10,411 bases of DNA from a virus (lineage: Duplodnaviria; Heunggongvirae; Uroviricota; Caudoviricetes), in IMG/VR virus record IMGVR_UViG_2703718789_000003, positions 1 to 10,411 of that record; one strand, 5' to 3'. Below, one piece after another: positions 1-10,383 of the stretch. How positions within the stretch are numbered: the first letter of the stretch is position 1; each line of letters begins with the position of its first letter. A program made the translations under genes and the position numbers. The notes beneath the pieces were generated by a model that was not told the origin of the DNA, did no database searches, and saw only the letters and a list, made by a program, of their open reading frames with translations.

Positions 1-275
1 TCAGAACGCTCGGTTGCCGCCGGGCGTTTTTTATTGGTGAGTCCATCAAGCGCATACTTAAAAGCCCTGCTAATCGGACTGATGTCTGATGCCATTCCGA
101 AAGCACACAAGACCGAAGCAATAAATCTCCAGTCCGTTCTGCTTATCTTCGATTCATGACAGCCAATCATCTTTGCCAGACCGCGCTGGGTAAGCGTTGA
201 CAGGTTGATAAGTAAATCTGTTTCTGCGCGATCAACGTCGCGCTGTGATAGTTTGCTGTAACTTGTTTGTTCCAT
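1..275 (-). CDS. cII: CII-like transcriptional activator, partial (C-terminal end lies beyond window start)
   Basis: Minus-strand translation from ATG (revcomp of 273-275) gives MEQTSYSKLSQRDVDRAETDLLINLSTLTQRGLAKMIGCHESKISRTDWRF...LTNKKRPAATERSE; the C-terminal stretch TNKKRPAATERSE matches lambda CII as I recall it; open to the window edge, which is why it is absent from the ORF track. Confidence 0.7.
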   Translation of the reverse strand, partial: MEQTSYSKLSQRDVDRAETDLLINLSTLTQRGLAKMIGCHESKISRTDWRFIASVLCAFGMASDISPISRAFKYALDGLTNKKRPAATERS

Positions 276-286
276 TTCTTACTATT
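253..286 (+). promoter_or_regulatory. Candidate CII-dependent pRE-like promoter (TTGC-N6-TTGT with TACTAT -10), reading toward cro antisense and cI
   Basis: TTGC at 253-256, six nt, TTGT at 263-266, overlapping the first codons of the cII-like gene on the other strand; -10-like TACTAT at 280-285; same position and geometry as lambda pRE. Confidence 0.25.
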
Positions 287-394
287 TCCATAGGTAAATA
301 ATTTGGTTTTTTATTGTGCACCATTGACAGTCATCCATGACCACGCCGGGCACCCGACCGTATACCGGGCCGTTCGGTATAAAAATTTGCTTTA

Positions 395-625
395 TTAAGC
401 TGCTTTGTTCGGATTGGGGAACAAAGCGGATAAATCAGGGCGAATCAGGTATGCAGGGACGCTTCCATTGGTAGCCATTTCAATGCGCTTGGCATTTTCA
501 GCGGATACCCTTTTCTTCCCATGCAACCAAGCCCATACAGACGGCTGCTTAACACCGCAGGCATCAGCTAACTTTTGCTGACTTCCTACTGAGTCAATAG
601 CCGCTTTAATAGCCTTGTTGACCAT
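395..625 (-). CDS. Cro-like small HTH regulator (Cro/YdaS family), 76 aa
   Basis: ORF track 395..667(-); I prefer the internal start MVNKAIKAAIDSVGSQQKLADACGVKQPSVWAWL... at 625 because an AGGAG Shine-Dalgarno lies 9 nt upstream on the minus strand (revcomp of 635-639); HTH-like core QQKLADACGVKQPSVWAW; diverges from cI across an operator region. Confidence 0.7.
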   Translation of the reverse strand: MVNKAIKAAIDSVGSQQKLADACGVKQPSVWAWLHGKKRVSAENAKRIEMATNGSVPAYLIRPDLSALFPNPNKAA

Positions 626-656
626 AAAAATAACTCCTGCTGAATTCACAATTAGG

Positions 657-685
657 ATAATAGCCAAAGCTATTCAGAAAGTAAA
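657..685 (-). promoter_or_regulatory. PR-like sigma70 promoter for the cro-like gene (TTTACT -17- TATTAT on minus strand)
   Basis: Minus-strand -35 TTTACT (revcomp of 680-685) and -10 TATTAT (revcomp of 657-662), 17-nt spacer; overlapped by operators at 659-674 and 684-699. Confidence 0.45.
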
Positions 686-723
686 TAGCTTTAGGTATTT
701 GACTAATAATAGCTGTAGCTATA
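659..723. promoter_or_regulatory. OR-like tripartite operator array: AATAGCcaaaGCTATT (659-674), AATAGCtttaGGTATT (684-699), AATAGCtgtaGCTATA (708-723)
   Basis: Three 16-bp inverted repeats with 6-4-6 geometry, centre-to-centre about 25 and 24 bp, lying between the divergent cro-like and cI-like genes and overlapping the candidate promoters. Confidence 0.6.
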
Positions 724-733: not shown

Positions 734-1465
734 ATGAAACTAGATACTTTTTCTCAAAGGCTTACATACGCGATGGATCAGGCTGGGTTTACTCAGGCTT
801 CTCTTGGCAATGCTGTTGGCATGTCTCAGCCAAGCGTCTGGAAACTTACGTCTGGAAAAACACGCAATACGCGCAAACTTTTTGAAATATCAAAAGTGCT
901 TGGAGTTCGTACGGAATGGCTTTCCGATGGAACTGGGCCAATGCGTGATGAGGGAGTTGAACCTTATAATCCAAAATCTTCTATTCCCCATGAAAGCACG
1001 TGGGGATATTTGGACCCATGGGATGGAGGAACGCCTTTAAGAGGTGATGAAGTTGAAATTCCTTACCTTAAAGATATTGAGTTTGCATGCGGGGATGGTC
1101 GGGTGATTGATGAAGATCACAACGGCTTTATGTTGCGCTTCTCCAAATCAACCCTTCGCAGAGTTGGCGCGAACAGTGATGGAAGCGGGGTTGTTTGTTT
1201 TCCGGCTCGTGGCAACAGCATGGAGCCAAACATTCCTGATGGAACAACAGTTGCTGTTAACACCAACGATAAGAAAATAGTTGACGGAAAGATTTACGCC
1301 ATTAACGAGAACGGCTGGAAACGCATTAAGATTCTCTTTCGGTCAGGGCCTGACAAGGTAAGCATTAGAAGCTTTAACTCACTGGAATACCCACAAGAAG
1401 AAAAGAATCTAAGCGATATCGAGATCATCGGAAGAATCTTCTGGTGGTCTGTAGTTGACTACTAA
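734..1465 (+). CDS. CI-like prophage repressor: N-terminal XRE-type HTH plus C-terminal S24 (LexA/UmuD-like) autopeptidase domain
   Basis: 243-aa ORF; HTH-like region QRLTYAMDQAGFTQASLGNAVGMSQPSVWKL; C-terminal GNSMEP (catalytic Ser motif) and downstream Lys (GWKRIKIL) typical of S24 peptidases; divergent from the cro-like gene across the operators. Confidence 0.85.
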   Translation: MKLDTFSQRLTYAMDQAGFTQASLGNAVGMSQPSVWKLTSGKTRNTRKLFEISKVLGVRTEWLSDGTGPMRDEGVEPYNPKSSIPHESTWGYLDPWDGGTPLRGDEVEIPYLKDIEFACGDGRVIDEDHNGFMLRFSKSTLRRVGANSDGSGVVCFPARGNSMEPNIPDGTTVAVNTNDKKIVDGKIYAINENGWKRIKILFRSGPDKVSIRSFNSLEYPQEEKNLSDIEIIGRIFWWSVVDY

Positions 1466-1482
1466 CCTCATCACACCACAAC

Positions 1483-1507
1483 AAACCCGCTTTTTGCGGG
1501 TTTTTTA
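1483..1507 (+). terminator. Rho-independent terminator after cI (stem AAACCCGC/GCGGGTTT, loop TTTTT, then T-run)
   Basis: Perfect 8-bp inverted repeat at 1483-1503 followed by TTTTTT; A-rich upstream so it could act in both directions. Confidence 0.65.
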
Positions 1508-1604
1508 TTGCCCAAAAAACACCAAATCTCACATACAAGAAAAATAAATTACATTAGATATCAATGACTAAATAACCAAAGGAGTTATTTTATAACTATA
1601 GCTA

Positions 1605-1633
1605 TTTACAGCAATAATAGCTTTGGATATAGT
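1605..1633 (+). promoter_or_regulatory. pL-like sigma70 promoter (TTTACA -17- TATAGT) overlapped by an OL-type operator AATAGCtttgGATATA (1616-1631)
   Basis: Near-consensus -35 and -10 hexamers with 17-nt spacer; operator half-site identical to the OR operators; a second degenerate site (ATAGCTAT core, 1597-1604) overlaps the -35. Confidence 0.45.
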
Positions 1634-1729
1634 TAAGCCATGTCGAACGGCGCGACATTAAACCATGCGTCGGGAGCGCGGCGGGTTCAGGATGAACGGC
1701 AATGCTGCTCACTACAAAAGAACATTTCC

Positions 1730-1762
1730 ATAACTTGATAGTTATTAAAGTGTTTTTATATA
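1730..1762 (+). promoter_or_regulatory. Second promoter-like element (TTGATA -16- TATATA) overlapped by a perfect 16-bp palindrome ATAACTtgatAGTTAT (1730-1745) of different sequence from the cI operators
   Basis: Hexamers at 1735-1740 and 1757-1762; palindrome has the same 6-4-6 geometry as the operators but different half-sites. Confidence 0.25.
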
Positions 1763-1840
1763 CGGGGTTAGCGATCTCGTGACACAAACCATTTACGCGG
1801 CAGGCTACCGGAAATCAAAACAATTGACGGCGAGGTAATT

Positions 1841-2203
1841 ATGGGTCAGGAAGAAAAATATGAGCTTAAAAAGCTCATTGAAGAAGACGCCATAGAAGAA
1901 ATTGCAGCATTAACAACAGCTATAAAGAATATTAGGTATGCGCTAAATACGCTTATCTCCTCATGCGACAAAAATAGCAGGGAATTTTTGATACTTGGCG
2001 CAGCTCTAGGAATAGTTGATGCGGCAACGCTTCACCTAATTACTCATGACGATATTCTTATTGAGCCGTATGAAACATTACTGCTTGTCAGGCAAAAAAT
2101 GGCTGATGCCGCAGCAAATGGAGACCTTCAACTTTACATCGACTTAAGGAAAGTATTAAGGCGAATGGTCAGAACTGAAGGAGATATCACCCTGACAAAA
2201 TAA
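1841..2203 (+). CDS. Hypothetical protein, 120 aa, first gene downstream of pL (N position) but with no arginine-rich motif
   Basis: ORF with GAGGT SD 6 nt upstream of ATG; acidic helical N-terminus MGQEEKYELKKLIEEDAIEE; AT-rich by eye; no family recognised. Confidence 0.5.
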   Translation: MGQEEKYELKKLIEEDAIEEIAALTTAIKNIRYALNTLISSCDKNSREFLILGAALGIVDAATLHLITHDDILIEPYETLLLVRQKMADAAANGDLQLYIDLRKVLRRMVRTEGDITLTK

Positions 2204-2383
2204 GGGGGTGAGAGGATTTTACTATTTTTCTCGCTGTAGGGGTACACGAGAACCACCGAGCCTGATGTGGTTAAAAGACAGGCACAATCTTTACTACCGC
2301 AAGCCACGCAGTGAAATGGGTGTAACTTGTGTTGGTCGCCAGAAAATGAAATTAGGCAGCAAACCACTTATTTGAGGTGAGAT

Positions 2384-2854
2384 ATGACAAAATCATGGAG
2401 CGTACCTTTTCCTGAATCAGAAACTGAACATGATGGAATGCCTGTTTTCTGGAGATTCCAGGCGACAGTTGAAGAAGATGGGATAAAAATATTCGCACTT
2501 CAATATATAGCTTTTCATCAGACAGAGCATTATGCATGGTTGGTTCCTGCGCATTGGATTGTTAATTTTAAACCAGCACCAAATCAGTGGTTACAGGAAT
2601 GGAAACAAAGGAGAAATAGATATGCAATTAAGAAAGTAGCAAAAAATGCAGAAAGATCTTTTGCATTCCCAACGAAGAAACTTGCCATTGAAAGTTTATT
2701 GCGCCGGAAGAAATACCATTTAATGAGAATCAAACAAGATTTGGCTGTTGTATCAACTCTTGTTGATGGGATGAAGAATATTGATACATCAATACCAGAT
2801 ATTGAATATAACTTTGGACACAACCAAGAAACAGAAAATTGGGTATTTTATTAG
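2384..2854 (+). CDS. Hypothetical protein, 156 aa, Trp-rich, AT-rich coding sequence
   Basis: ORF with GAGGTGA SD 5 nt upstream of ATG; no family recognised; occupies the ral/sieB-equivalent position between the pL-proximal gene and cIII. Confidence 0.55.
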   Translation: MTKSWSVPFPESETEHDGMPVFWRFQATVEEDGIKIFALQYIAFHQTEHYAWLVPAHWIVNFKPAPNQWLQEWKQRRNRYAIKKVAKNAERSFAFPTKKLAIESLLRRKKYHLMRIKQDLAVVSTLVDGMKNIDTSIPDIEYNFGHNQETENWVFY

Positions 2855-2959
2855 TACGAATAAGCACTGTGTATTCATTCCAGCGAGTGAATACACGGAG
2901 CAATGTCGCTCGTAACTAAACAGGAGCCGACTTGTTCTGATTATTGGAAATCTTCTTTG

Positions 2960-2982
2960 CCCTCCAGTGTGAGGGACTTTTT
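2960..2982 (+). terminator. Intrinsic terminator-like hairpin (CCCTC/GAGGG, 6-nt loop) followed by TTTTT
   Basis: Stem 2960-2964 with 2971-2975, T-run 2978-2982; lies upstream of cIII like a tL-type terminator. Confidence 0.4.
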
Positions 2983-2995
2983 ATATGCATACCAA

Positions 2996-3019
2996 TAACG
3001 CTTCACTCGAGGCGTTTTT
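2996..3019 (+). terminator. Second weaker terminator-like hairpin (AACGC...GCGTT) followed by TTTTT
   Basis: 5-bp stem 2997-3001 with 3012-3016, 10-nt loop, T-run 3015-3019. Confidence 0.3.
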
Positions 3020-3045
3020 CGTTATGTATAAATAAGGAGCACACC

Positions 3046-3186
3046 ATGCAATATGCCATTGCAGGGTGGCCTGTTGCTGGCTGCCCTTCCGAATCTTTAC
3101 TTGAGCGAATCACCCGTAAATTACGTGACGGATGGAAACGCCTTATCGACATACTTAATCAGCCAGGAGTTCCAAAAAATGGATAA
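3046..3186 (+). CDS. cIII: CIII (FtsH/HflB inhibitor that stabilises CII), 46 aa
   Basis: MQYAIAGWPVAGCPSESLLERITRKLRDGWKRLIDILNQPGVPKNG is nearly identical to lambda CIII as I recall it, but ends 8 residues earlier; AAGGAG SD 6 nt upstream of ATG 3046; the ORF-track entry 2944..3186 is an upstream in-frame extension. Confidence 0.85.
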   Translation: MQYAIAGWPVAGCPSESLLERITRKLRDGWKRLIDILNQPGVPKNG

Positions 3187-3485: not shown

Positions 3486-4142
3486 ATGGGTACTGCGACA
3501 TTAATACTCGGTGAGTCTGGCACCGGAAAATCAACCAGTTTAAGAAACTTACCACCAGAAAAAACATTAATCATACAGTGCATAAACAAACCGCTACCAT
3601 TCCCATCAAGTGATTGGGTTAAAATAAGCAAGGAAAACAATAACGGGAACATATACAGAACAGATAATACTGAAAATATTGTAAGGGCACTAATTAATGC
3701 TCCGCATGAAATTGTAGTTATTGATGATTATCAGGCTGTGATGGTTAACGAACTAATGGGTAAATGCAATGAGAGAGGATATGACAAATTTACCTCGATA
3801 GGGAAAAACGCATGGGATGTGTTCAGGGCTGCTGGTGAAGGTGCAGACACTCGGAGAGTTTATATTCTGGCACACACGCAAACTGATGATTTTGGCTATA
3901 CACGAATGAAAACCGTCGGAAAACTAGTCGATTCGACACTTGTTCCTGAAGGTTATTTCACTATCGTGTTAAGAACTCACGTACAGAACGGAAAATACTC
4001 ATTTTCCACCCAGACAAACGGGAGTGATTGTTGTAAAAGTCCGGTTGGGATGTTTGATAGTCAGTTTATTGATAATGATTTGTACGAAGTAGATAAAAAA
4101 ATATGCTCTTACTATGGGTTTGAAAAAAATGAGACGTCTTGA
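3486..4142 (+). CDS. P-loop ATPase, Sak4-like / AAA_24-type (RecA-core-only recombination ATPase of phages)
   Basis: Walker A GESGTGKST at residues 9-17, Walker B-like hhhhDD (EIVVIDD) about 65 residues later, conserved-looking YILAHTQ segment; lies where lambda has exo/bet/gam; GAGGTGA SD. Confidence 0.6.
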   Translation: MGTATLILGESGTGKSTSLRNLPPEKTLIIQCINKPLPFPSSDWVKISKENNNGNIYRTDNTENIVRALINAPHEIVVIDDYQAVMVNELMGKCNERGYDKFTSIGKNAWDVFRAAGEGADTRRVYILAHTQTDDFGYTRMKTVGKLVDSTLVPEGYFTIVLRTHVQNGKYSFSTQTNGSDCCKSPVGMFDSQFIDNDLYEVDKKICSYYGFEKNETS

Positions 4143-4734
4143 GGTATCCGGCGAGAGATTTGGCAATTTAGTTGTTATTGGTGATGCAGGAATGCGTGGT
4201 ACTCAAAGGTTGGTAAACTGTGTGTGTGACTGCGGAGTAGTTTGTGTTAAACAGCTTGGCAACCTCCGTTCAGGGCACACAAGAAGTTGTGGTTGCTCAC
4301 GCTCATCTACAACAAAAGCAAGAAAAAACAAACATGGCATGTATGGAACACCAACATACAAGTCATGGTCTTCAATCTTAACAAGATGCTTCAATGAAAG
4401 AAATAGTAAATACAAACACTATGGAGGAAGAGGAATAACTGTTTGTGAACGGTGGCTGAACTTTAAATTATTTTTCGCTGATATGGGAAAAAGACCTGAC
4501 GGAACTACATTGGGAAGAATTGATAACAATGGTAATTACGAACCATCAAATTGCGAATGGCAGAAAAGTATCGAGCAAGCAAGAAATAAGAGTAATACCG
4601 TATTATTTAAATTCAATGGAGTGCTGGCAACAATTTCAGAGCACTGCGAAAAAACTGGATTAAACCCAAGCACGGTAAGAAGCAGGATTTACACATATCA
4701 TTGGTCTGTAGACAAGGCCTTATCAAAAGGATAA
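4129..4734 (+). CDS. HNH-like (HNH_3-type) Cys-rich putative nuclease / DNA-binding protein
   Basis: Cys cluster CVCDCG...SCGC followed by YKSW...YGGRGITVCERW...GRIDNNGNYEPSNCEW, a pattern I associate with phage proteins annotated as HNH endonucleases; start uncertain (ATG 4114 or 4129, neither with a strong SD); overlaps the end of the ATPase gene. Confidence 0.5.
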   Translation: MRRLEVSGERFGNLVVIGDAGMRGTQRLVNCVCDCGVVCVKQLGNLRSGHTRSCGCSRSSTTKARKNKHGMYGTPTYKSWSSILTRCFNERNSKYKHYGGRGITVCERWLNFKLFFADMGKRPDGTTLGRIDNNGNYEPSNCEWQKSIEQARNKSNTVLFKFNGVLATISEHCEKTGLNPSTVRSRIYTYHWSVDKALSKG

Positions 4735-4738
4735 AAGC

Positions 4739-5326
4739 ATGAGCAACGTAATTTTTACTTATAACGAAGAAGCAGCACTGACCGCAGGGCAAGGTGGTTT
4801 TATTAACGAAACTGGCGCTCACATAATTACCATTACTGAAGCAGAACTCAAGCAATCAGAAAAAGGAGCCAAATTTATTGAGTTTTCTGGAGAATCCGAC
4901 GACGGACGTAAAATCCAGTATCTTAGCGTCTGTGTTCAGAAAAATGACGGCACGGAAAACAAATTTGGCGCAAATGTCGTTCACGCCATGATGGGGTGTG
5001 CCGGGATTGGACAATTAACGCAACATATGGTTTCCGCCAGTAAATTTGTTGCACCTGAATTTCATGGAAAGAAAATCGGGTTAGTGCTCCAGAAAGTATT
5101 AACCACAAACAAAAAGACTGGCGCAGACAGCTACCAGATGGAAATACGCATCCCGTTTATTGCACAAACAGGTCAAACCCTTAAAGAAAAGGCAGAAGGC
5201 AAGCAACCAGAAACTATCGCCAACATGGTTGCCAGCCTCAAAGATAAAGACAATCGCTCTAAAAACGTAAGCCATAATCATGCAGATGATTATGGTTACA
5301 GCCAGAACGATTACCCTCCTTTCTGA
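4739..5326 (+). CDS. Possible ssDNA-binding protein (SSB/gp2.5-like acidic-aromatic C-terminal tail); function uncertain
   Basis: 195-aa ORF ending ...HADDYGYSQNDYPPF, reminiscent of the SSB C-terminal DDDIPF tail; Sak4-type ATPases are commonly encoded near an SSB; the N-terminal region is not recognisably an OB-fold SSB by eye. Confidence 0.35.
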   Translation: MSNVIFTYNEEAALTAGQGGFINETGAHIITITEAELKQSEKGAKFIEFSGESDDGRKIQYLSVCVQKNDGTENKFGANVVHAMMGCAGIGQLTQHMVSASKFVAPEFHGKKIGLVLQKVLTTNKKTGADSYQMEIRIPFIAQTGQTLKEKAEGKQPETIANMVASLKDKDNRSKNVSHNHADDYGYSQNDYPPF

Positions 5327-5349
5327 TTACTGAAAATAAGGCTCCCATT

Positions 5350-5646
5350 ATGCCAGCGCCTCTGTATGGTGCGGATGACCCGCGCAACTGCTCCGGTAGC
5401 TCCAAGGCGGAGGTGCTGGAAAATATCAAAAACAATTTCGACGCGTTTCTTGCTCTGACACCAGAAACAAAAGCAGAACGGATGTACCGACGCGATATAC
5501 AACTCGCGCTAAAACAGGAGAAGGACCGAACAAACGAAACAGCAATGAGACCGTTGCGAAAAGCGACAATAGACAAATTCCCTGAATATATCGACCCGCG
5601 CCTGCGTAATTACCGCTCACGCTATGGCGCTATCAGTAATGACTGA
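5350..5646 (+). CDS. Hypothetical protein, 98 aa
   Basis: ORF in the same operon and strand; no motif recognised. Confidence 0.45.
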
Positions 5647-5824: not shown

Positions 5825-6414
5825 GCAAAATTGACTATCAGGTACTGCGTGAAAAGGCAGAAAAAGCAACGTGTGGTGAGTGGTCTCTCGAATATGGAGA
5901 GAGCCGATTTGATGGTGATGATGCACTAATTCATCGCGAGGCTGCTGGATATATTCCCATTTGCAGAATTGAAGGAGCGCATCCTGAAAGCGGTTTCGAT
6001 GAAGATTTCCAAATGGAACAGCAGGCCAATGCTGAATTCATCGCCGCAGCCAATCCGGCTACCGTCTTGGCGCTGCTGGATGAGCTGGAAAGAAACCAGC
6101 AATACATCAAACGCCGCGACCAGGAGAACGAGGATATTGCGCTAACGGTAGGGAAACTGCGTGTTGAGCTTGAGGAAGCAAAATCAAAACTCAACGAGCA
6201 ACGCGAGTATTACGAGGGAGTAATCGCGGATGGAAGTAAGCGCATAGCAGAACTGTCTGCTAGCCACAGCAAATTGCGCGACACAATGGCTGGCATCCAC
6301 AACACAATCCGAATGGATGGCGGCTATACGCCACTGGCAGCAATCCTTAACGCTGCTAAACGCGCATATGAAGAATCAGCAAGCGCCGCTGGCATCAAGG
6401 AGGAGTCTGAGTGA
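5821..6414 (+). CDS. Ead/Ea22-like protein (coiled-coil-rich phage early protein)
   Basis: GTG start with AGGAGG SD; N-terminal [21 protein letters not shown] resembles the start of proteins I recall as Ead/Ea22-like in enterobacterial prophages; central coiled-coil-like region. Confidence 0.5.
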
Positions 6415-6905
6415 TGGTCATTTCACCTATAACGCTGAAAGCGGCGCAGGAATTTATCGCACAGCACCACCGACACAATAAACCACCAGTGGGGCATAAA
6501 TTCAGCATTGGTCTGAGAAATAATGCCGGAGAATTGATAGGTGTGGCGACAGCTGGTCGACCTGTTGCACGACATTTGGACGATGGATTAACGCTTGAAG
6601 TAAATCGCACATGTACCACAGGAGAACGCAACGCTAACAGCGCGCTTTATGGTGCTGTCTGGCGGGCAGCAAAAGCTATGGGTTATCAACGTTGTATTAC
6701 GTACACCCAGGCAGATGAATCAGGAGCATCTCTTCGCGCAGCTGGTTTTGTTCGTGTGAAAGAGCTTCCTCCAAGAAAAAGCTGGGCGGAATCAAGCGTC
6801 GCCCTGCGGAGTAAACGCGATCCGGTCGGAAACGGTGGTATTCCTCGTGTGCTCTGGGAAATCAGGAGAATGAGTACCGCTGGCATTCGCATCAAAGGAG
6901 AGTGA
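6411..6905 (+). CDS. Hypothetical protein, 164 aa, with HHRHNKPPVGH and GVATAGRPVAR motifs
   Basis: Start overlaps the upstream stop (GTGATG); GAGGAG SD; no confident family assignment. Confidence 0.55.
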   Translation: MMVISPITLKAAQEFIAQHHRHNKPPVGHKFSIGLRNNAGELIGVATAGRPVARHLDDGLTLEVNRTCTTGERNANSALYGAVWRAAKAMGYQRCITYTQADESGASLRAAGFVRVKELPPRKSWAESSVALRSKRDPVGNGGIPRVLWEIRRMSTAGIRIKGE

Positions 6906-9020: not shown

Positions 9021-9072
9021 TTCTTGTCCATAAGAGTATAACCTGAGCGTGCTCTTGGACGCAGGAGGAACA

Positions 9073-10383
9073 ATGGCGAATTCAGCCTATCCAGCCGGCG
9101 TTGAAAATCACGGAGGAAAACTCCGAATAACGTTTAAGTACAGGGGTAAACGAGTGCGCGAAAATCTTCGCGTGCCCGATACACCGAAAAACAGAAAGAT
9201 CGCTGGTGAGTTAAGGGCTTCGGTCTGCTTTGCAATCAGAACAGGAACGTTTGATTATGCCGATCGATTCCCTGACTCACCTAACCTGAAGCTATTTGGC
9301 CTGGTAAAAAAAGATATCACCGTCGGTGAACTGGCACAGAAATGGCTTACTCTGAAAGCAATGGAAATCGGTAGTAACGCCTTAAATCGTTATCAATCAG
9401 TGATGAAAAATATGCTACCGAGGCTTGGTCCTGGCAGGCTGGCGTCATCGATTACAAAAGAAGATCTGCTGTTTATCAGGAAAGATTTACTGACCGGGGA
9501 AAAGGGAAGCAGGAAAACCAGCACGTCCCGAAAAGGAAGAACCGTACCCACAGTGAACTATTACATGACAACAACAGCCGGAATGTTCAGCTTTGCCGCC
9601 GAAAACGGGTATCTGGAGAAAAACCCGTTTAATTCAATAACACCGCTGAGGAAATCAAAACCAGTGCCGGATCCACTGACCAGAGATGAGTTTAGCCGTC
9701 TCATTGATGCCTGCCATCATCAACAGACCAAAAACCTCTGGACAGTGGCTGTTTTTACAGGGATGCGACACGGTGAAATTGCCGCACTTGCATGGGAGGA
9801 TATCGACCTGAAAGCTGGCACGATAACAGTGCGACGAAATTTTACAAAAATAGGTGATTTTACGCTACCAAAGACCGACGCAGGCACTAACCGGGTTATA
9901 CATCTTCTGGCACCAGCAATTGAAGCACTTAAAAACCAGGCGATGCTTACTCGTCTTAGCAGGCAGCATCAGATCACTGTTCAATTACGCGAGTACGGAA
10001 GAACAATTTTGCACGAGTGCACTTTTGTTTTCTGTCCGCAAATCGTTCGCAAGAATCACAAGGCGGGTATTAACTACGCGGTAAGCTCCATCGGAGCGAC
10101 ATGGGATTCAGCAATAAAAAGAGCGGGTATCCGATCCCGTAAAGCGTATCAGTCACGCCATACCTATGCGTGCTGGGCTTTATCTTCCGGAGCAAACCCG
10201 ACATTTATTGCATCACAGATGGGGCACTCCAGCGCCAGCATGGTCTACAATGTTTATGGTGCATGGATGCCTGAGTGCAGCGTGACTCAAGTTGCCATGT
10301 TGAATAATGTCCTTAATGCCCGTGCCCCAGACGTGCCCCAAAGTGACCAGGAGGATGAAATAAAATTATATTTTTCAAAATGA
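9073..10383 (+). CDS. int: Tyrosine site-specific integrase (phage integrase family)
   Basis: AGGAGG SD 4 nt before ATG 9073 (ORF track begins at upstream in-frame ATG 9049); N-terminal arm-binding-like GGKLRITFKYRGKRVRENL; C-terminal catalytic-domain motifs including HxxRHT-like SRHTYACWAL and terminal Tyr region MVYNVYGAWMP. Confidence 0.9.
   Translation: MANSAYPAGVENHGGKLRITFKYRGKRVRENLRVPDTPKNRKIAGELRASVCFAIRTGTFDYADRFPDSPNLKLFGLVKKDITVGELAQKWLTLKAMEIGSNALNRYQSVMKNMLPRLGPGRLASSITKEDLLFIRKDLLTGEKGSRKTSTSRKGRTVPTVNYYMTTTAGMFSFAAENGYLEKNPFNSITPLRKSKPVPDPLTRDEFSRLIDACHHQQTKNLWTVAVFTGMRHGEIAALAWEDIDLKAGTITVRRNFTKIGDFTLPKTDAGTNRVIHLLAPAIEALKNQAMLTRLSRQHQITVQLREYGRTILHECTFVFCPQIVRKNHKAGINYAVSSIGATWDSAIKRAGIRSRKAYQSRHTYACWALSSGANPTFIASQMGHSSASMVYNVYGAWMPECSVTQVAMLNNVLNARAPDVPQSDQEDEIKLYFSK

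What the first reader, a model, noticed from the sequence alone, without database searches (positions are those of the whole stretch)
1841..2854. AT-rich two-gene island in the N/ral/sieB position, with no N-like antiterminator
The first genes downstream of the pL-like promoter are two unrecognised ORFs (120 aa and 156 aa) that look clearly more AT-rich by eye than the cI gene or the 5.3-8.3 kb operon. In lambda-type phages this slot holds N plus accessory exclusion or anti-restriction genes (rexAB, sieB, ral), and is a known site for lysogenic-conversion and defence cargo. Neither protein has the arginine-rich N-terminus of N/Nun, although terminators (2960-3019) lie between them and cIII. 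They may therefore be an uncharacterised exclusion/defence pair or an unconventional antitermination factor.
Basis: partly seen in the sequence, partly recalled or inferred. Interest (0 to 1): 0.65.

Follow-up and report, generated by a model that had tools for sequence, protein, structure and literature searches.

The report
Two cargo genes behind putL antiterminator
The two "mystery" genes are already-catalogued but unstudied accessory genes (HK620 hkaQ and 933W L0079) of a mosaic E. coli prophage. The missing N antiterminator is explained by an HK022-type put RNA just upstream, so the locus is ordinary.

Summary
The two ORFs exist exactly as described (1841-2203, 120 aa; 2384-2854, 156 aa) and are the first complete genes after a good pL promoter (1605-1633, overlapped by two operators).

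The puzzle of "no N" is solved outside the finding's coordinates:
- Window 1639-1712 is a near-copy of the phage HK022 putL antiterminator RNA (67/74 identical, positions 20-73 identical, 5' duplex kept by two compensatory pairs).
- A putR copy lies at 316-380 on the minus strand (56/57 over the annotated 57-nt putR, 316-372).
- No nut sites are present.
- Only the last 16 codons of a 933W/HK620-type N gene survive (1789-1838), marking a recombination joint.

The terminators before cIII are tL2A and tL2B (2959-2986, 2997-3018). put-modified RNA polymerase should read through them without any phage protein.

ORF120 is HK620/HK630 hkaQ. ORF156 is 933W L0079. Both are real genes under purifying selection, with no Pfam, NCBIfam, PADLOC or fold match. 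They are separate cassettes rather than a pair: 96 versus 598 of 5426 E. coli genomes, with independent presence and absence.

The low GC is real but modest and not unique in the window. Their function stays unknown; accessory exclusion or host-directed roles are only inferred from the slot they occupy.

The parts
316..380 (-). putR, the HK022-type antiterminator RNA. The equivalent of the annotated 57-nt putR is 316-372; the 5' duplex extends to about 380.
   Evidence: 56/57 identical to the putR annotated in phage O276/HK022. It lies between cro and cII, about 270 nt downstream of pR, as described for HK022 (PMC9378689).
657..685 (-). pR promoter (TTTACT-17-TATTAT), within the oR operators (660-722)
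   Evidence: Promoter scan; three copies of the operator palindrome at 660-673, 685-698 and 709-722.
734..1465 (+). cI repressor (HTH plus S24 peptidase)
   Evidence: Pfam Peptidase_S24 3.7e-15 and HTH_3; phrog_4.
1483..1503 (+). Intrinsic terminator after cI (tIMM-like)
   Evidence: 8-bp stem followed by a T-run.
1592..1633 (+). oL operators (1592-1605, 1617-1630) overlapping pL (TTTACA at 1605-1610, 17-nt spacer, TATAGT at 1628-1633)
   Evidence: The -10 to putL spacing matches HK022 to within 1 nt.
1639..1712 (+). putL, the HK022-type cis-acting antiterminator RNA, starting at or next to the pL transcription start
   Evidence: BLAST 92.8% identity to HK022/HK75/O276 putL, E = 5e-24. 67/74 identical, and positions 20-73 are 100% identical. 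The 5' duplex A3-G7/C15-U19 is kept by two double compensatory changes, and A9, the -10-like AACCAT (+23 to +28), U28, G35 and U68 are all conserved (direct reading against PMC9378689).
1718..1757 (+). AT-rich 16-bp hairpin of unknown role between putL and the N remnant
   Evidence: MFE -19.3 kcal/mol for 1712-1790, z = -3.5. Shared with about 8 E. coli genomes and Salmonella phage UPF_BP1.
1789..1838 (+). 3' remnant of an N antiterminator gene (last 16 codons, ...IYAAGYRKSKQLTAR*). It carries the Shine-Dalgarno sequence of ORF120.
   Evidence: 97.9% identical to the 933W N 3' end. Pfam N_peptide matches only profile positions 85-100. Stop codons lie upstream in this frame.
1841..2203 (+). ORF120, a homologue of hkaQ (HK620/HK630/HK629). 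Predicted helical protein, pI 5.0, function unknown.
2204..2383 (.). Spacer holding two cassette joints: the hkaP-less joint at 2205-2215, and the left end of the L0079 cassette at about 2285 relative to HK620 (2322 relative to 933W)
   Evidence: BLAST and direct alignment with the O26 prophage, HK620 and 933W.
2384..2854 (+). ORF156, a homologue of 933W L0079. Basic, Trp-rich protein, function unknown.
2864..2899 (+). Perfect 14-bp hairpin just after the ORF156 stop codon
   Evidence: MFE -21.7 kcal/mol, z = -6.5. Also present in HK620 and O276.
2959..3018 (+). Tandem intrinsic terminators tL2A (2959-2986) and tL2B (2997-3018)
   Evidence: Terminator scan. 26/28 and 20/22 matches to the annotated HK620 tL2A and tL2B; 26/30 to O276 tL2a.
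3033..3186 (+). cIII thermoregulator RNA (3033-3091) and the cIII gene (3047-3186)
   Evidence: Rfam Lambda_thermo 88.5 bits, E = 4.9e-21. cIII is named by its 96% DNA identity to the 933W and O276 cIII/kil region.

Best explanation
The finding lies in the early-left (pL) operon of a mosaic lambdoid E. coli prophage that uses HK022-type put RNA antitermination instead of N/nut.

Proposed sequence of events:
1. On induction, RNA polymerase starts at pL (about position 1640) and immediately transcribes putL (1639-1712).
2. By analogy with HK022, the folded putL RNA binds the beta' zinc-binding domain of the same polymerase and makes it resistant to pausing and termination.
3. That polymerase transcribes ORF120 and ORF156, reads through tL2A/tL2B (2959-3018), and continues into cIII, kil, the Sak4/HNH/SSB recombination genes, xis and int.
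4. putR (316-380, minus strand) does the same for the pR operon.

The 50-nt N fragment at 1789-1838 is a recombination scar. It joins a put-type immunity/pL module to cargo that normally follows an N gene.

ORF120 (hkaQ of HK620) and ORF156 (L0079 of 933W) are two independent single-gene cassettes of the variable pL-to-cIII slot. They are real genes under purifying selection, but they are neither antiterminators nor an obligate pair. Their most likely role, inferred only from position, is a non-essential early function aimed at the host or at competing phages (exclusion or anti-defence type).

Shown here: sequence identities, gene anatomy, distribution across genomes. Inferred: put activity in this phage, and the proteins' roles.
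For: put system:
- putL matches HK022/HK75/O276 putL at 92.8% (E = 5e-24). 67/74 identical, with positions 20-73 identical.
- All seven differences lie at positions 1-5, 17, 19 and 74. A3-U19 and A5-U17 of the cryo-EM-defined duplex (PMC9378689) both become U-A.
- putR is 56/57 identical and about 270 nt from pR.
- pL and the operators are confirmed.

Absence of N/nut:
- No nut or boxA of HK620 or 933W type in the early region. The best ungapped matches are about 45-60% (22-31 of 42-67 positions; no shuffle control was run), and the only CGCTCTT is inside int.
- N is reduced to 16 codons.
- The same putL-spacer-N-remnant joint occurs in plasmid pCDF6_2 with different downstream genes.

Terminators: tL2A and tL2B are confirmed.

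Identity of the ORFs: ORF120 = hkaQ; ORF156 = L0079.

Independence of the two ORFs:
- 96 versus 598 of 5426 genomes.
- Only 2 genomes carry the whole 1466-3050 arrangement.
- hkaP and L0079 behave as clean insertions or deletions.
- L0079 homologues occupy other positions in other phages.

Real genes: dN/dS about 0.14 for ORF120 and 0.04-0.24 for ORF156.
Against: - No experiment shows put activity in this prophage.
- Single-sequence folding energies of putL and putR are no better than shuffles (z = -0.1 and +0.9). So the structural support rests on identity to HK022 and two compensatory pairs, not on thermodynamics.
- The prophage could be defective.
- The functional guess for the two proteins has no direct support: no PADLOC, Pfam or NCBIfam hit, no informative fold match, and nothing found in the literature.
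- The low GC3 of ORF156 (0.274) is compatible with foreign cargo but says nothing about its function.
Confidence: 0.85

Rival explanations
1. At least one of the two proteins is a superinfection-exclusion, anti-phage defence or anti-defence factor.
For: - The slot holds exclusion genes in sibling prophages: a P22 gp17-type sie (Pfam GP17, 2e-53), SieB, and hkaP, annotated as a 'putative superinfection exclusion protein' in HK620.
- The cargo varies behind the same cI/putL.
- Low GC3 is typical of morons.
- ORF120 has a conserved hydrophobic helix at residues 49-67 (Kyte-Doolittle 19-residue mean 2.03).
Against: - No hit in PADLOC, Pfam or NCBIfam, and no fold similarity to known defence or exclusion proteins.
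- No promoter of their own above chance that would allow expression in the lysogen: 5 promoter-like sites were found against 8.8 expected.
- L0079 homologues also sit at the int-proximal end of the operon or in a different phage type, so the position argument is weak.
Confidence: 0.3
2. The two proteins form an obligate two-component system (the 'pair' idea).
For: They are adjacent, on the same strand, and both low in GC.
Against: - Occurrence differs sixfold: 96 versus 598 genomes.
- 933W has only L0079 and HK620 has only hkaQ.
- In O26 prophages an opposite-strand gene separates them.
- They are 180 bp apart, and cassette joints lie in that spacer.
Confidence: 0.04
3. ORF120 or ORF156 is an unconventional protein antiterminator that replaces N.
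For: - PGAP labels some ORF120 homologues 'antitermination N domain protein'.
- ORF156 has a strongly basic, highly conserved central segment (net +13 over residues 61-120).
Against: - The label has no model support: no Pfam N_peptide or NCBIfam hit even for the 148-aa extended form. That extension is just an out-of-frame read across the N 3' end.
- putL and putR already explain antitermination.
- No nut sites are present.
- In HK620 and 933W these genes coexist with an intact N.
Confidence: 0.03
4. hkaQ (ORF120) is functionally coupled to N, for example as a modulator of N activity or stability. In this put-type phage it would be an orphaned passenger.
For: In every other context examined it starts 2 nt after the stop codon of a 90-aa N_peptide gene, with its Shine-Dalgarno sequence inside N's last codons. 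This holds for HK620, HK630, the O26 prophage, and 63%-identical metagenomic homologues.
Against: - Tight linkage may simply reflect a shared module boundary.
- The gene is intact and nearly unchanged here without N (3 amino-acid differences from HK620).
- 933W-type N phages lack it.
- There is no structural clue.
Confidence: 0.1

Closest known systems
Phage HK022 put (polymerase-utilisation) antitermination, putL and putR (also HK75, O276; more distant in HK639)
   Same: - Nearly the same RNA sequences: 67/74 for putL and 56/57 for putR.
- The same placement: putL at the pL start, putR about 270 nt from pR between cro and cII.
- No N gene and no nut sites.
- An HK022-like cII/putR segment (93.6% over window 9-384).
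   Different: - The immunity region differs (cI, cro and operator sequence).
- The 5' duplex of putL carries two compensatory pair swaps.
- HK022 has nun after putL. Here the slot holds an N 3' remnant, hkaQ and L0079.
- Activity was not tested here.
HK620 / HK630 early-left region (N, hkaQ, hkaP, tL2A, tL2B, cIII)
   Same: - hkaQ is 97.8% identical at the protein level.
- The TAA-TT-ATG junction with the end of N is the same.
- tL2A, tL2B and cIII follow in the same order.
   Different: - HK620 has an intact N gene and nutL/nutR.
- HK620 has hkaP on the opposite strand (containing tL1).
- HK620 has no L0079 cassette.
933W / Stx-phage early-left region (N, L0079, ea10/ssb, cIII)
   Same: - L0079 is identical apart from one amino acid.
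- The flanking DNA is 98.7% identical (window 2322-2987).
- The N 3' end is the same sequence.
   Different: - 933W has a full 127-aa N gene and nutL.
- 933W lacks hkaQ.
- 933W carries ea10/ssb before cIII, which is absent here.
Lambda/P22 accessory genes of the N-to-cIII slot (ral, sieB, gp17, ea10)
   Same: The same genomic slot, and the same cassette-like presence and absence.
   Different: No detectable sequence or fold similarity of ORF120 or ORF156 to any of them.

Membership tests
HK022-type put antiterminator RNA | Sequence homology to HK022 putL and putR | tested here: met
   putL 92.8% by BLAST (E = 5e-24) and 67/74 identical; putR 56/57 identical.
HK022-type put antiterminator RNA | Position: putL directly downstream of the pL start, putR about 270 nt downstream of pR | tested here: met
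   The pL -10 ends at 1633 and putL starts at 1639-1640. The pR -10 ends at 657 and putR starts at about 380 (PMC9378689).
HK022-type put antiterminator RNA | Two-stem structure, including the 5' duplex (A3-G7 with C15-U19) and the functionally critical residues A9, U28, G35 and U68 | tested here: met
   - The duplex is kept by two double compensatory changes (U1641-A1657 and U1643-A1655).
- All named residues lie in the identical stretch or are unchanged.
- The MFE fold gives the same stem II as HK022.
- Caveat: folding energies are not better than shuffles (z = -0.1 and +0.9).
HK022-type put antiterminator RNA | Promotes terminator read-through in cis without a phage protein, and depends on the RNA polymerase beta' zinc-binding domain | not testable with these tools
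   This needs reporter or in vitro transcription assays.
N-family antiterminator proteins (Pfam N_peptide PF25694; arginine-rich motif plus nut sites) | A protein matching the N profile with an N-terminal arginine-rich motif | tested here: not met
   - ORF120, ORF156 and the 148-aa extended form P0001 give no hit.
- The controls 933W N and O26 N90 score 2.1e-15 and 1.1e-15.
- The remnant matches only profile positions 85-100.
N-family antiterminator proteins (Pfam N_peptide PF25694; arginine-rich motif plus nut sites) | nutL and nutR (boxA/boxB) downstream of pL and pR | tested here: not met
   No boxA in the early region. The best ungapped matches to the HK620 and 933W nut sites are about 45-60% (no shuffle control was run).
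Known anti-phage defence or superinfection-exclusion proteins (PADLOC-DB, P22 gp17, SieB) | Profile match to a known defence or exclusion family | tested here: not met
   - PADLOC gives only a 12-bit Cas1 noise hit for ORF156 and nothing for ORF120.
- Pfam GP17 hits the neighbouring gene in sibling prophages, not these two ORFs.
HkaQ family (phrog_7374) | Full-length profile match and near-identity to HK620 hkaQ | tested here: met
   2.7e-78 over residues 1-120 of 120. 97.8% identity by tblastn over residues 30-120 of 120, as residues 1-29 were not aligned. Over the full 120 codons there are 3 non-synonymous differences from HK620 hkaQ.
933W L0079 family (phrog_1636) | Full-length profile match and near-identity to 933W L0079 | tested here: met
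   6.2e-112 over residues 1-156 of 156. One non-synonymous difference from 933W.
Two-gene system (co-inherited pair) | The genes co-occur and keep their adjacency across genomes | tested here: not met
   96 versus 598 of 5426 genomes. HK620 and 933W each have only one of the two genes.

The most novel reading that the evidence does not exclude
L0079 (ORF156) is present in about 11% of complete E. coli genomes, including most Stx-phage backgrounds, and is conserved at 55-84% identity across Enterobacterales temperate phages. It could be a new type of early phage effector with no known fold. One possibility is a nucleic-acid-binding anti-defence or host-takeover protein, given its invariant basic core. 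Separately, hkaQ could be a previously unrecognised partner of short N proteins.
Probability: 0.2. Interest if true: 0.5.

Novelty: new member of a known kind. Interest (0 to 1): 0.25.

Why it matters
Mostly it closes a question. The apparent lack of an antiterminator is not a new mechanism. It is a further natural example of HK022-type put RNA antitermination, here combined with a different immunity region and with cargo borrowed from N-dependent phages.

The surviving 16-codon stub of N next to putL is a clear footprint of how lambdoid phages swap whole regulatory strategies by recombining at module borders.

The natural putL variant, with two compensatory pair swaps in the 5' duplex, independently supports the duplex seen only in the 2022 cryo-EM structure.

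The two proteins remain function-unknown. L0079 is common in Shiga-toxin phages, so a simple knockout and phage-challenge study would be worthwhile, but nothing here marks it as exceptional.

Tried and rejected
- Profile searches of both ORFs: no meaningful hit in Pfam, NCBIfam or PADLOC. PHROGs gives only 'unknown function' families.
- Protein homologue searches and an exhaustive HMMER scan of 1.84 billion representatives for ORF120. ORF120 is nearly an orphan (8 hits). ORF156 homologues are all 'hypothetical'.
- PDB sequence profile search for ORF156: nothing better than E = 0.66.
- Profile search of both families against all ORFs of 20 related loci, to find distant relatives in the same slot: none.
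- Rfam: only the cIII thermoregulator passes threshold. No put family was matched, so putL was found by BLAST against annotated phages instead.
- Rejected: the Arg-rich 22-codon mini-ORF MRRERGG... (1665-1733) as an N-like peptide. It lies inside putL, is shared with HK022, and has no Pfam hit.
- Rejected: the PGAP name 'antitermination N domain protein', treated as an annotation artefact.
- Rejected: a promoter for lysogen expression inside the region. Promoter-like sites are below the chance expectation.
- Literature searches for L0079, hkaQ and the protein accessions gave no functional data.

Full report
**Layout of the window.** ORF listing and profile searches show a lambdoid immunity and early-left region, oriented so that pL transcription runs on the + strand:
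- cII 3' part (34-275, minus strand) and a cro-like gene (395-667, minus strand).
- cI (734-1465, +), followed by a 375-bp non-coding stretch.
- ORF120 (1841-2203) and ORF156 (2384-2854).
- cIII with its Rfam thermoregulator (3033-3091, 88.5 bits), then kil.
- A Sak4-like/HNH/SSB recombination module, an Abc2-type anti-RecBCD gene, Ea22-like and DUF genes, an excisionase and an integrase (9049-10383).

**Check of the observation.** Both ORFs are at the stated coordinates and have strong ribosome-binding sites. The pL promoter is real: TTTACA-17-TATAGT at 1605-1633 is the best sigma-70 match in the first 3.6 kb. It is overlapped by two copies of the 14-bp palindrome ATAGCTnnAGCTAT, which occurs three times at oR.

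They match the annotated tL2A (26/28) and tL2B (20/22) of phage HK620.

The AT-richness is real but modest. GC is 0.389 for the finding against 0.442 for the window. ORF120 is 0.394 and ORF156 is 0.357, with GC3 of 0.274. However, the spacer between the ORFs is 0.461, and the Sak4/HNH genes are just as low (0.385-0.391). It is therefore not a single distinct island.

**Why there is no N.** Megablast of 1466-3050 against phage genomes showed that identity to 933W and other Stx phages begins abruptly at window 1789, inside the 3' end of N. Translation confirms that only ...IYAAGYRKSKQLTAR* survives, preceded by stop codons. Pfam's N_peptide model sees only its last 16 positions there.

A more sensitive search with 1466-1800 then hit the putL elements of HK022, HK75 and O276 at 92.8% (E = 5e-24), plus weaker matches to the HK639 'putL-like antiterminator RNA'.

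Direct comparison gives 67/74 identity to HK022 putL, counted from the transcript start. Positions 20-73 are identical. The differences fall at positions 1-5, 17, 19 and 74.

[quoted passage not shown] In the window, A3-U19 and A5-U17 have both become U-A, so the duplex is preserved by two double compensatory changes. The residues that paper names as critical are all unchanged: A9, the -10-like AACCAT at +23 to +28 with U28, G35/G36 and U68.

A second copy, putR, lies at 316-380 on the minus strand. It is 56/57 identical to the annotated O276/HK022 putR (316-372). It sits between cro and cII, about 270 nt downstream of the pR-like promoter at 685-657, exactly as described for HK022.

No boxA/boxB nut sites of the HK620 or 933W type exist in the early region.

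Single-sequence folding energies of putL and putR are not better than shuffled controls. The structural argument therefore rests on identity and the compensatory pairs, and activity is inferred rather than shown.

**Mosaic history.** The joints are sharp:

| Window coordinates | Content | Closest relative |
|---|---|---|
| 9-384 | cII and putR | HK022/O276-like, 93.6% |
| about 385-1633 | cro, cI, operators | a different immunity type |
| 1634-1714 | putL | HK022 |
| 1715-1788 | spacer with a stable AT-rich hairpin (z = -3.5) | about 8 E. coli genomes, Salmonella phage UPF_BP1 |
| 1789-1838 | N 3' stub | 933W/HK620-type N |
| 1841-2215 | hkaQ cassette | HK620 |
| about 2285-2857 | L0079 cassette | 933W |
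| from 2858 | tL2A, tL2B, cIII, kil | HK620/O276/933W |

The same putL-spacer-N-stub joint is present in plasmid pCDF6_2, followed by completely different genes (sieB, gp17-type sie). The joint therefore predates this particular combination.

With the same cI and putL, other E. coli prophages carry yet other cargo before cIII. Only 2 of 5426 complete E. coli genomes have the full 1466-3050 arrangement. None holds more than 54% of the whole window in one place.

**ORF120.** It is hkaQ of HK620, and is also in HK629 and HK630 (97.8-98.9% identical at the protein level).
- In those phages, in O26 Stx1 prophages and in 63%-identical metagenomic relatives, it starts 2 nt after the stop codon of a 90-aa N_peptide gene.
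- Its Shine-Dalgarno sequence lies in N's last codons, which this window retains.
- It is nearly an orphan: 8 hits among 1.84 billion representatives, and 96 of 5426 E. coli genomes.
- It is nonetheless under purifying selection (dN 0.25, dS about 1.7 against the distant homologue).
- The RefSeq label 'antitermination N domain protein' on some homologues has no model support. It appears to come from a 148-aa version whose extension reads across the N 3' end in another frame.
- The only literature mention found is an engineering paper that inserted reporters in the hkaP/hkaQ intergenic region of HK620 without loss of viability (PMC4506075).

**ORF156.** It is L0079 of 933W, differing by one amino acid.
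- It occurs in 598 of 5426 E. coli genomes.
- Its family is conserved at 55-84% identity in temperate phages of Cronobacter, Pectobacterium, Brenneria, Rosenbergiella and others, with 40 invariant positions, many in a basic core.
- Its position varies. It lies between N and cIII in Cronobacter, immediately before xis/int in Pectobacterium and Brenneria, and beside a ParB-like gene in another phage type. It has no constant neighbour.
- The PDB sequence profile search and a second profile search of the protein database add nothing.

**Conclusion.** The antitermination question is answered by a known mechanism found just upstream of the finding. The two ORFs are independent, already-catalogued cassettes of unknown function in a known variable slot.
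- The 'pair' reading is contradicted by the distribution data.
- The 'antitermination factor' reading is contradicted by putL/putR, and by the coexistence of these genes with an intact N in HK620 and 933W.
- An exclusion, defence or anti-defence role remains possible for either gene, but it is supported only by the company they keep in sibling prophages (gp17, SieB, hkaP).

I rate the finding as ordinary. It is a new member of the HK022-type put phages, with a tidy evolutionary scar and a natural compensatory variant of putL as its most noteworthy details.

Noticed in passing
window 316-380 (-): A second put element, putR. It is 56/57 identical to the HK022/O276 putR (annotated span 316-372), lies between cro and cII, and is about 270 nt downstream of the pR-like promoter.
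   Followed up: yes
window 3-30 (+): A strong terminator hairpin with a T-run, antisense to the 3' end of cII. From memory it looks like the lambda oop/t0 terminator.
   Followed up: no
window 1718-1757 (+): An AT-rich 16-bp hairpin (z = -3.5) between putL and the N remnant. It is conserved in about 8 E. coli genomes and in Salmonella phage UPF_BP1. Its role is unknown.
   Followed up: partly
window 2864-2899 (+): A perfect 14-bp hairpin (z = -6.5) directly after the ORF156 stop codon, with no T-run. It is also present in HK620 and O276 upstream of tL2A. It could be an RNA processing or stability element.
   Followed up: partly
window 2205-2215 and about 2285; L004 3429-3961; L019 2807-3301: hkaP is a 164-aa opposite-strand gene annotated as a 'putative superinfection exclusion protein', and it contains tL1 in HK620. 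It is cleanly absent here, with short similar sequences at the joint. L0079 is in turn a clean insertion relative to HK620. This is cassette-style gain and loss.
   Followed up: partly
L003 3376-3738 and RefSeq WP_069201255.1; P0001: hkaQ homologues are labelled 'antitermination N domain protein' in RefSeq although no Pfam or NCBIfam model supports this. The 148-aa form is an upstream extension that overlaps the end of N out of frame.
   Followed up: yes
window 6411-6905 (+): A 164-aa ORF with a sub-threshold match to the Pfam Mom family (24.2 bits against a cutoff of 27.1). It may be a DNA-modification-type acyltransferase in the early-left operon.
   Followed up: no
window 3486-5646 (+): The recombination module is Sak4-like ATPase, HNH endonuclease, SSB and a P22 Abc2-type anti-RecBCD gene, instead of lambda gam/bet/exo. 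The Sak4 and HNH genes are as low in GC (0.385-0.391) as the finding.
   Followed up: partly
L008-L011 (metagenomic contigs with the 63%-identical hkaQ homologue): These phages carry a short N_peptide gene before hkaQ, a convergent overlapping 94-aa gene with a weak GhoS hit, and further downstream a 98-aa protein that hits Pfam Phage_N_antitermin. That makes two N-like genes in one early-left operon.
   Followed up: no
window 660-722 and 1592-1630: The operator palindrome ATAGCTnnAGCTAT occurs three times at oR and twice at oL, spaced 24-25 bp apart. It defines an immunity type shared by about 40 of 5426 E. coli genomes, judged from the oL-pL-putL DNA (window 1466-1800) matching in 40 of 5426 genomes.
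   Followed up: partly
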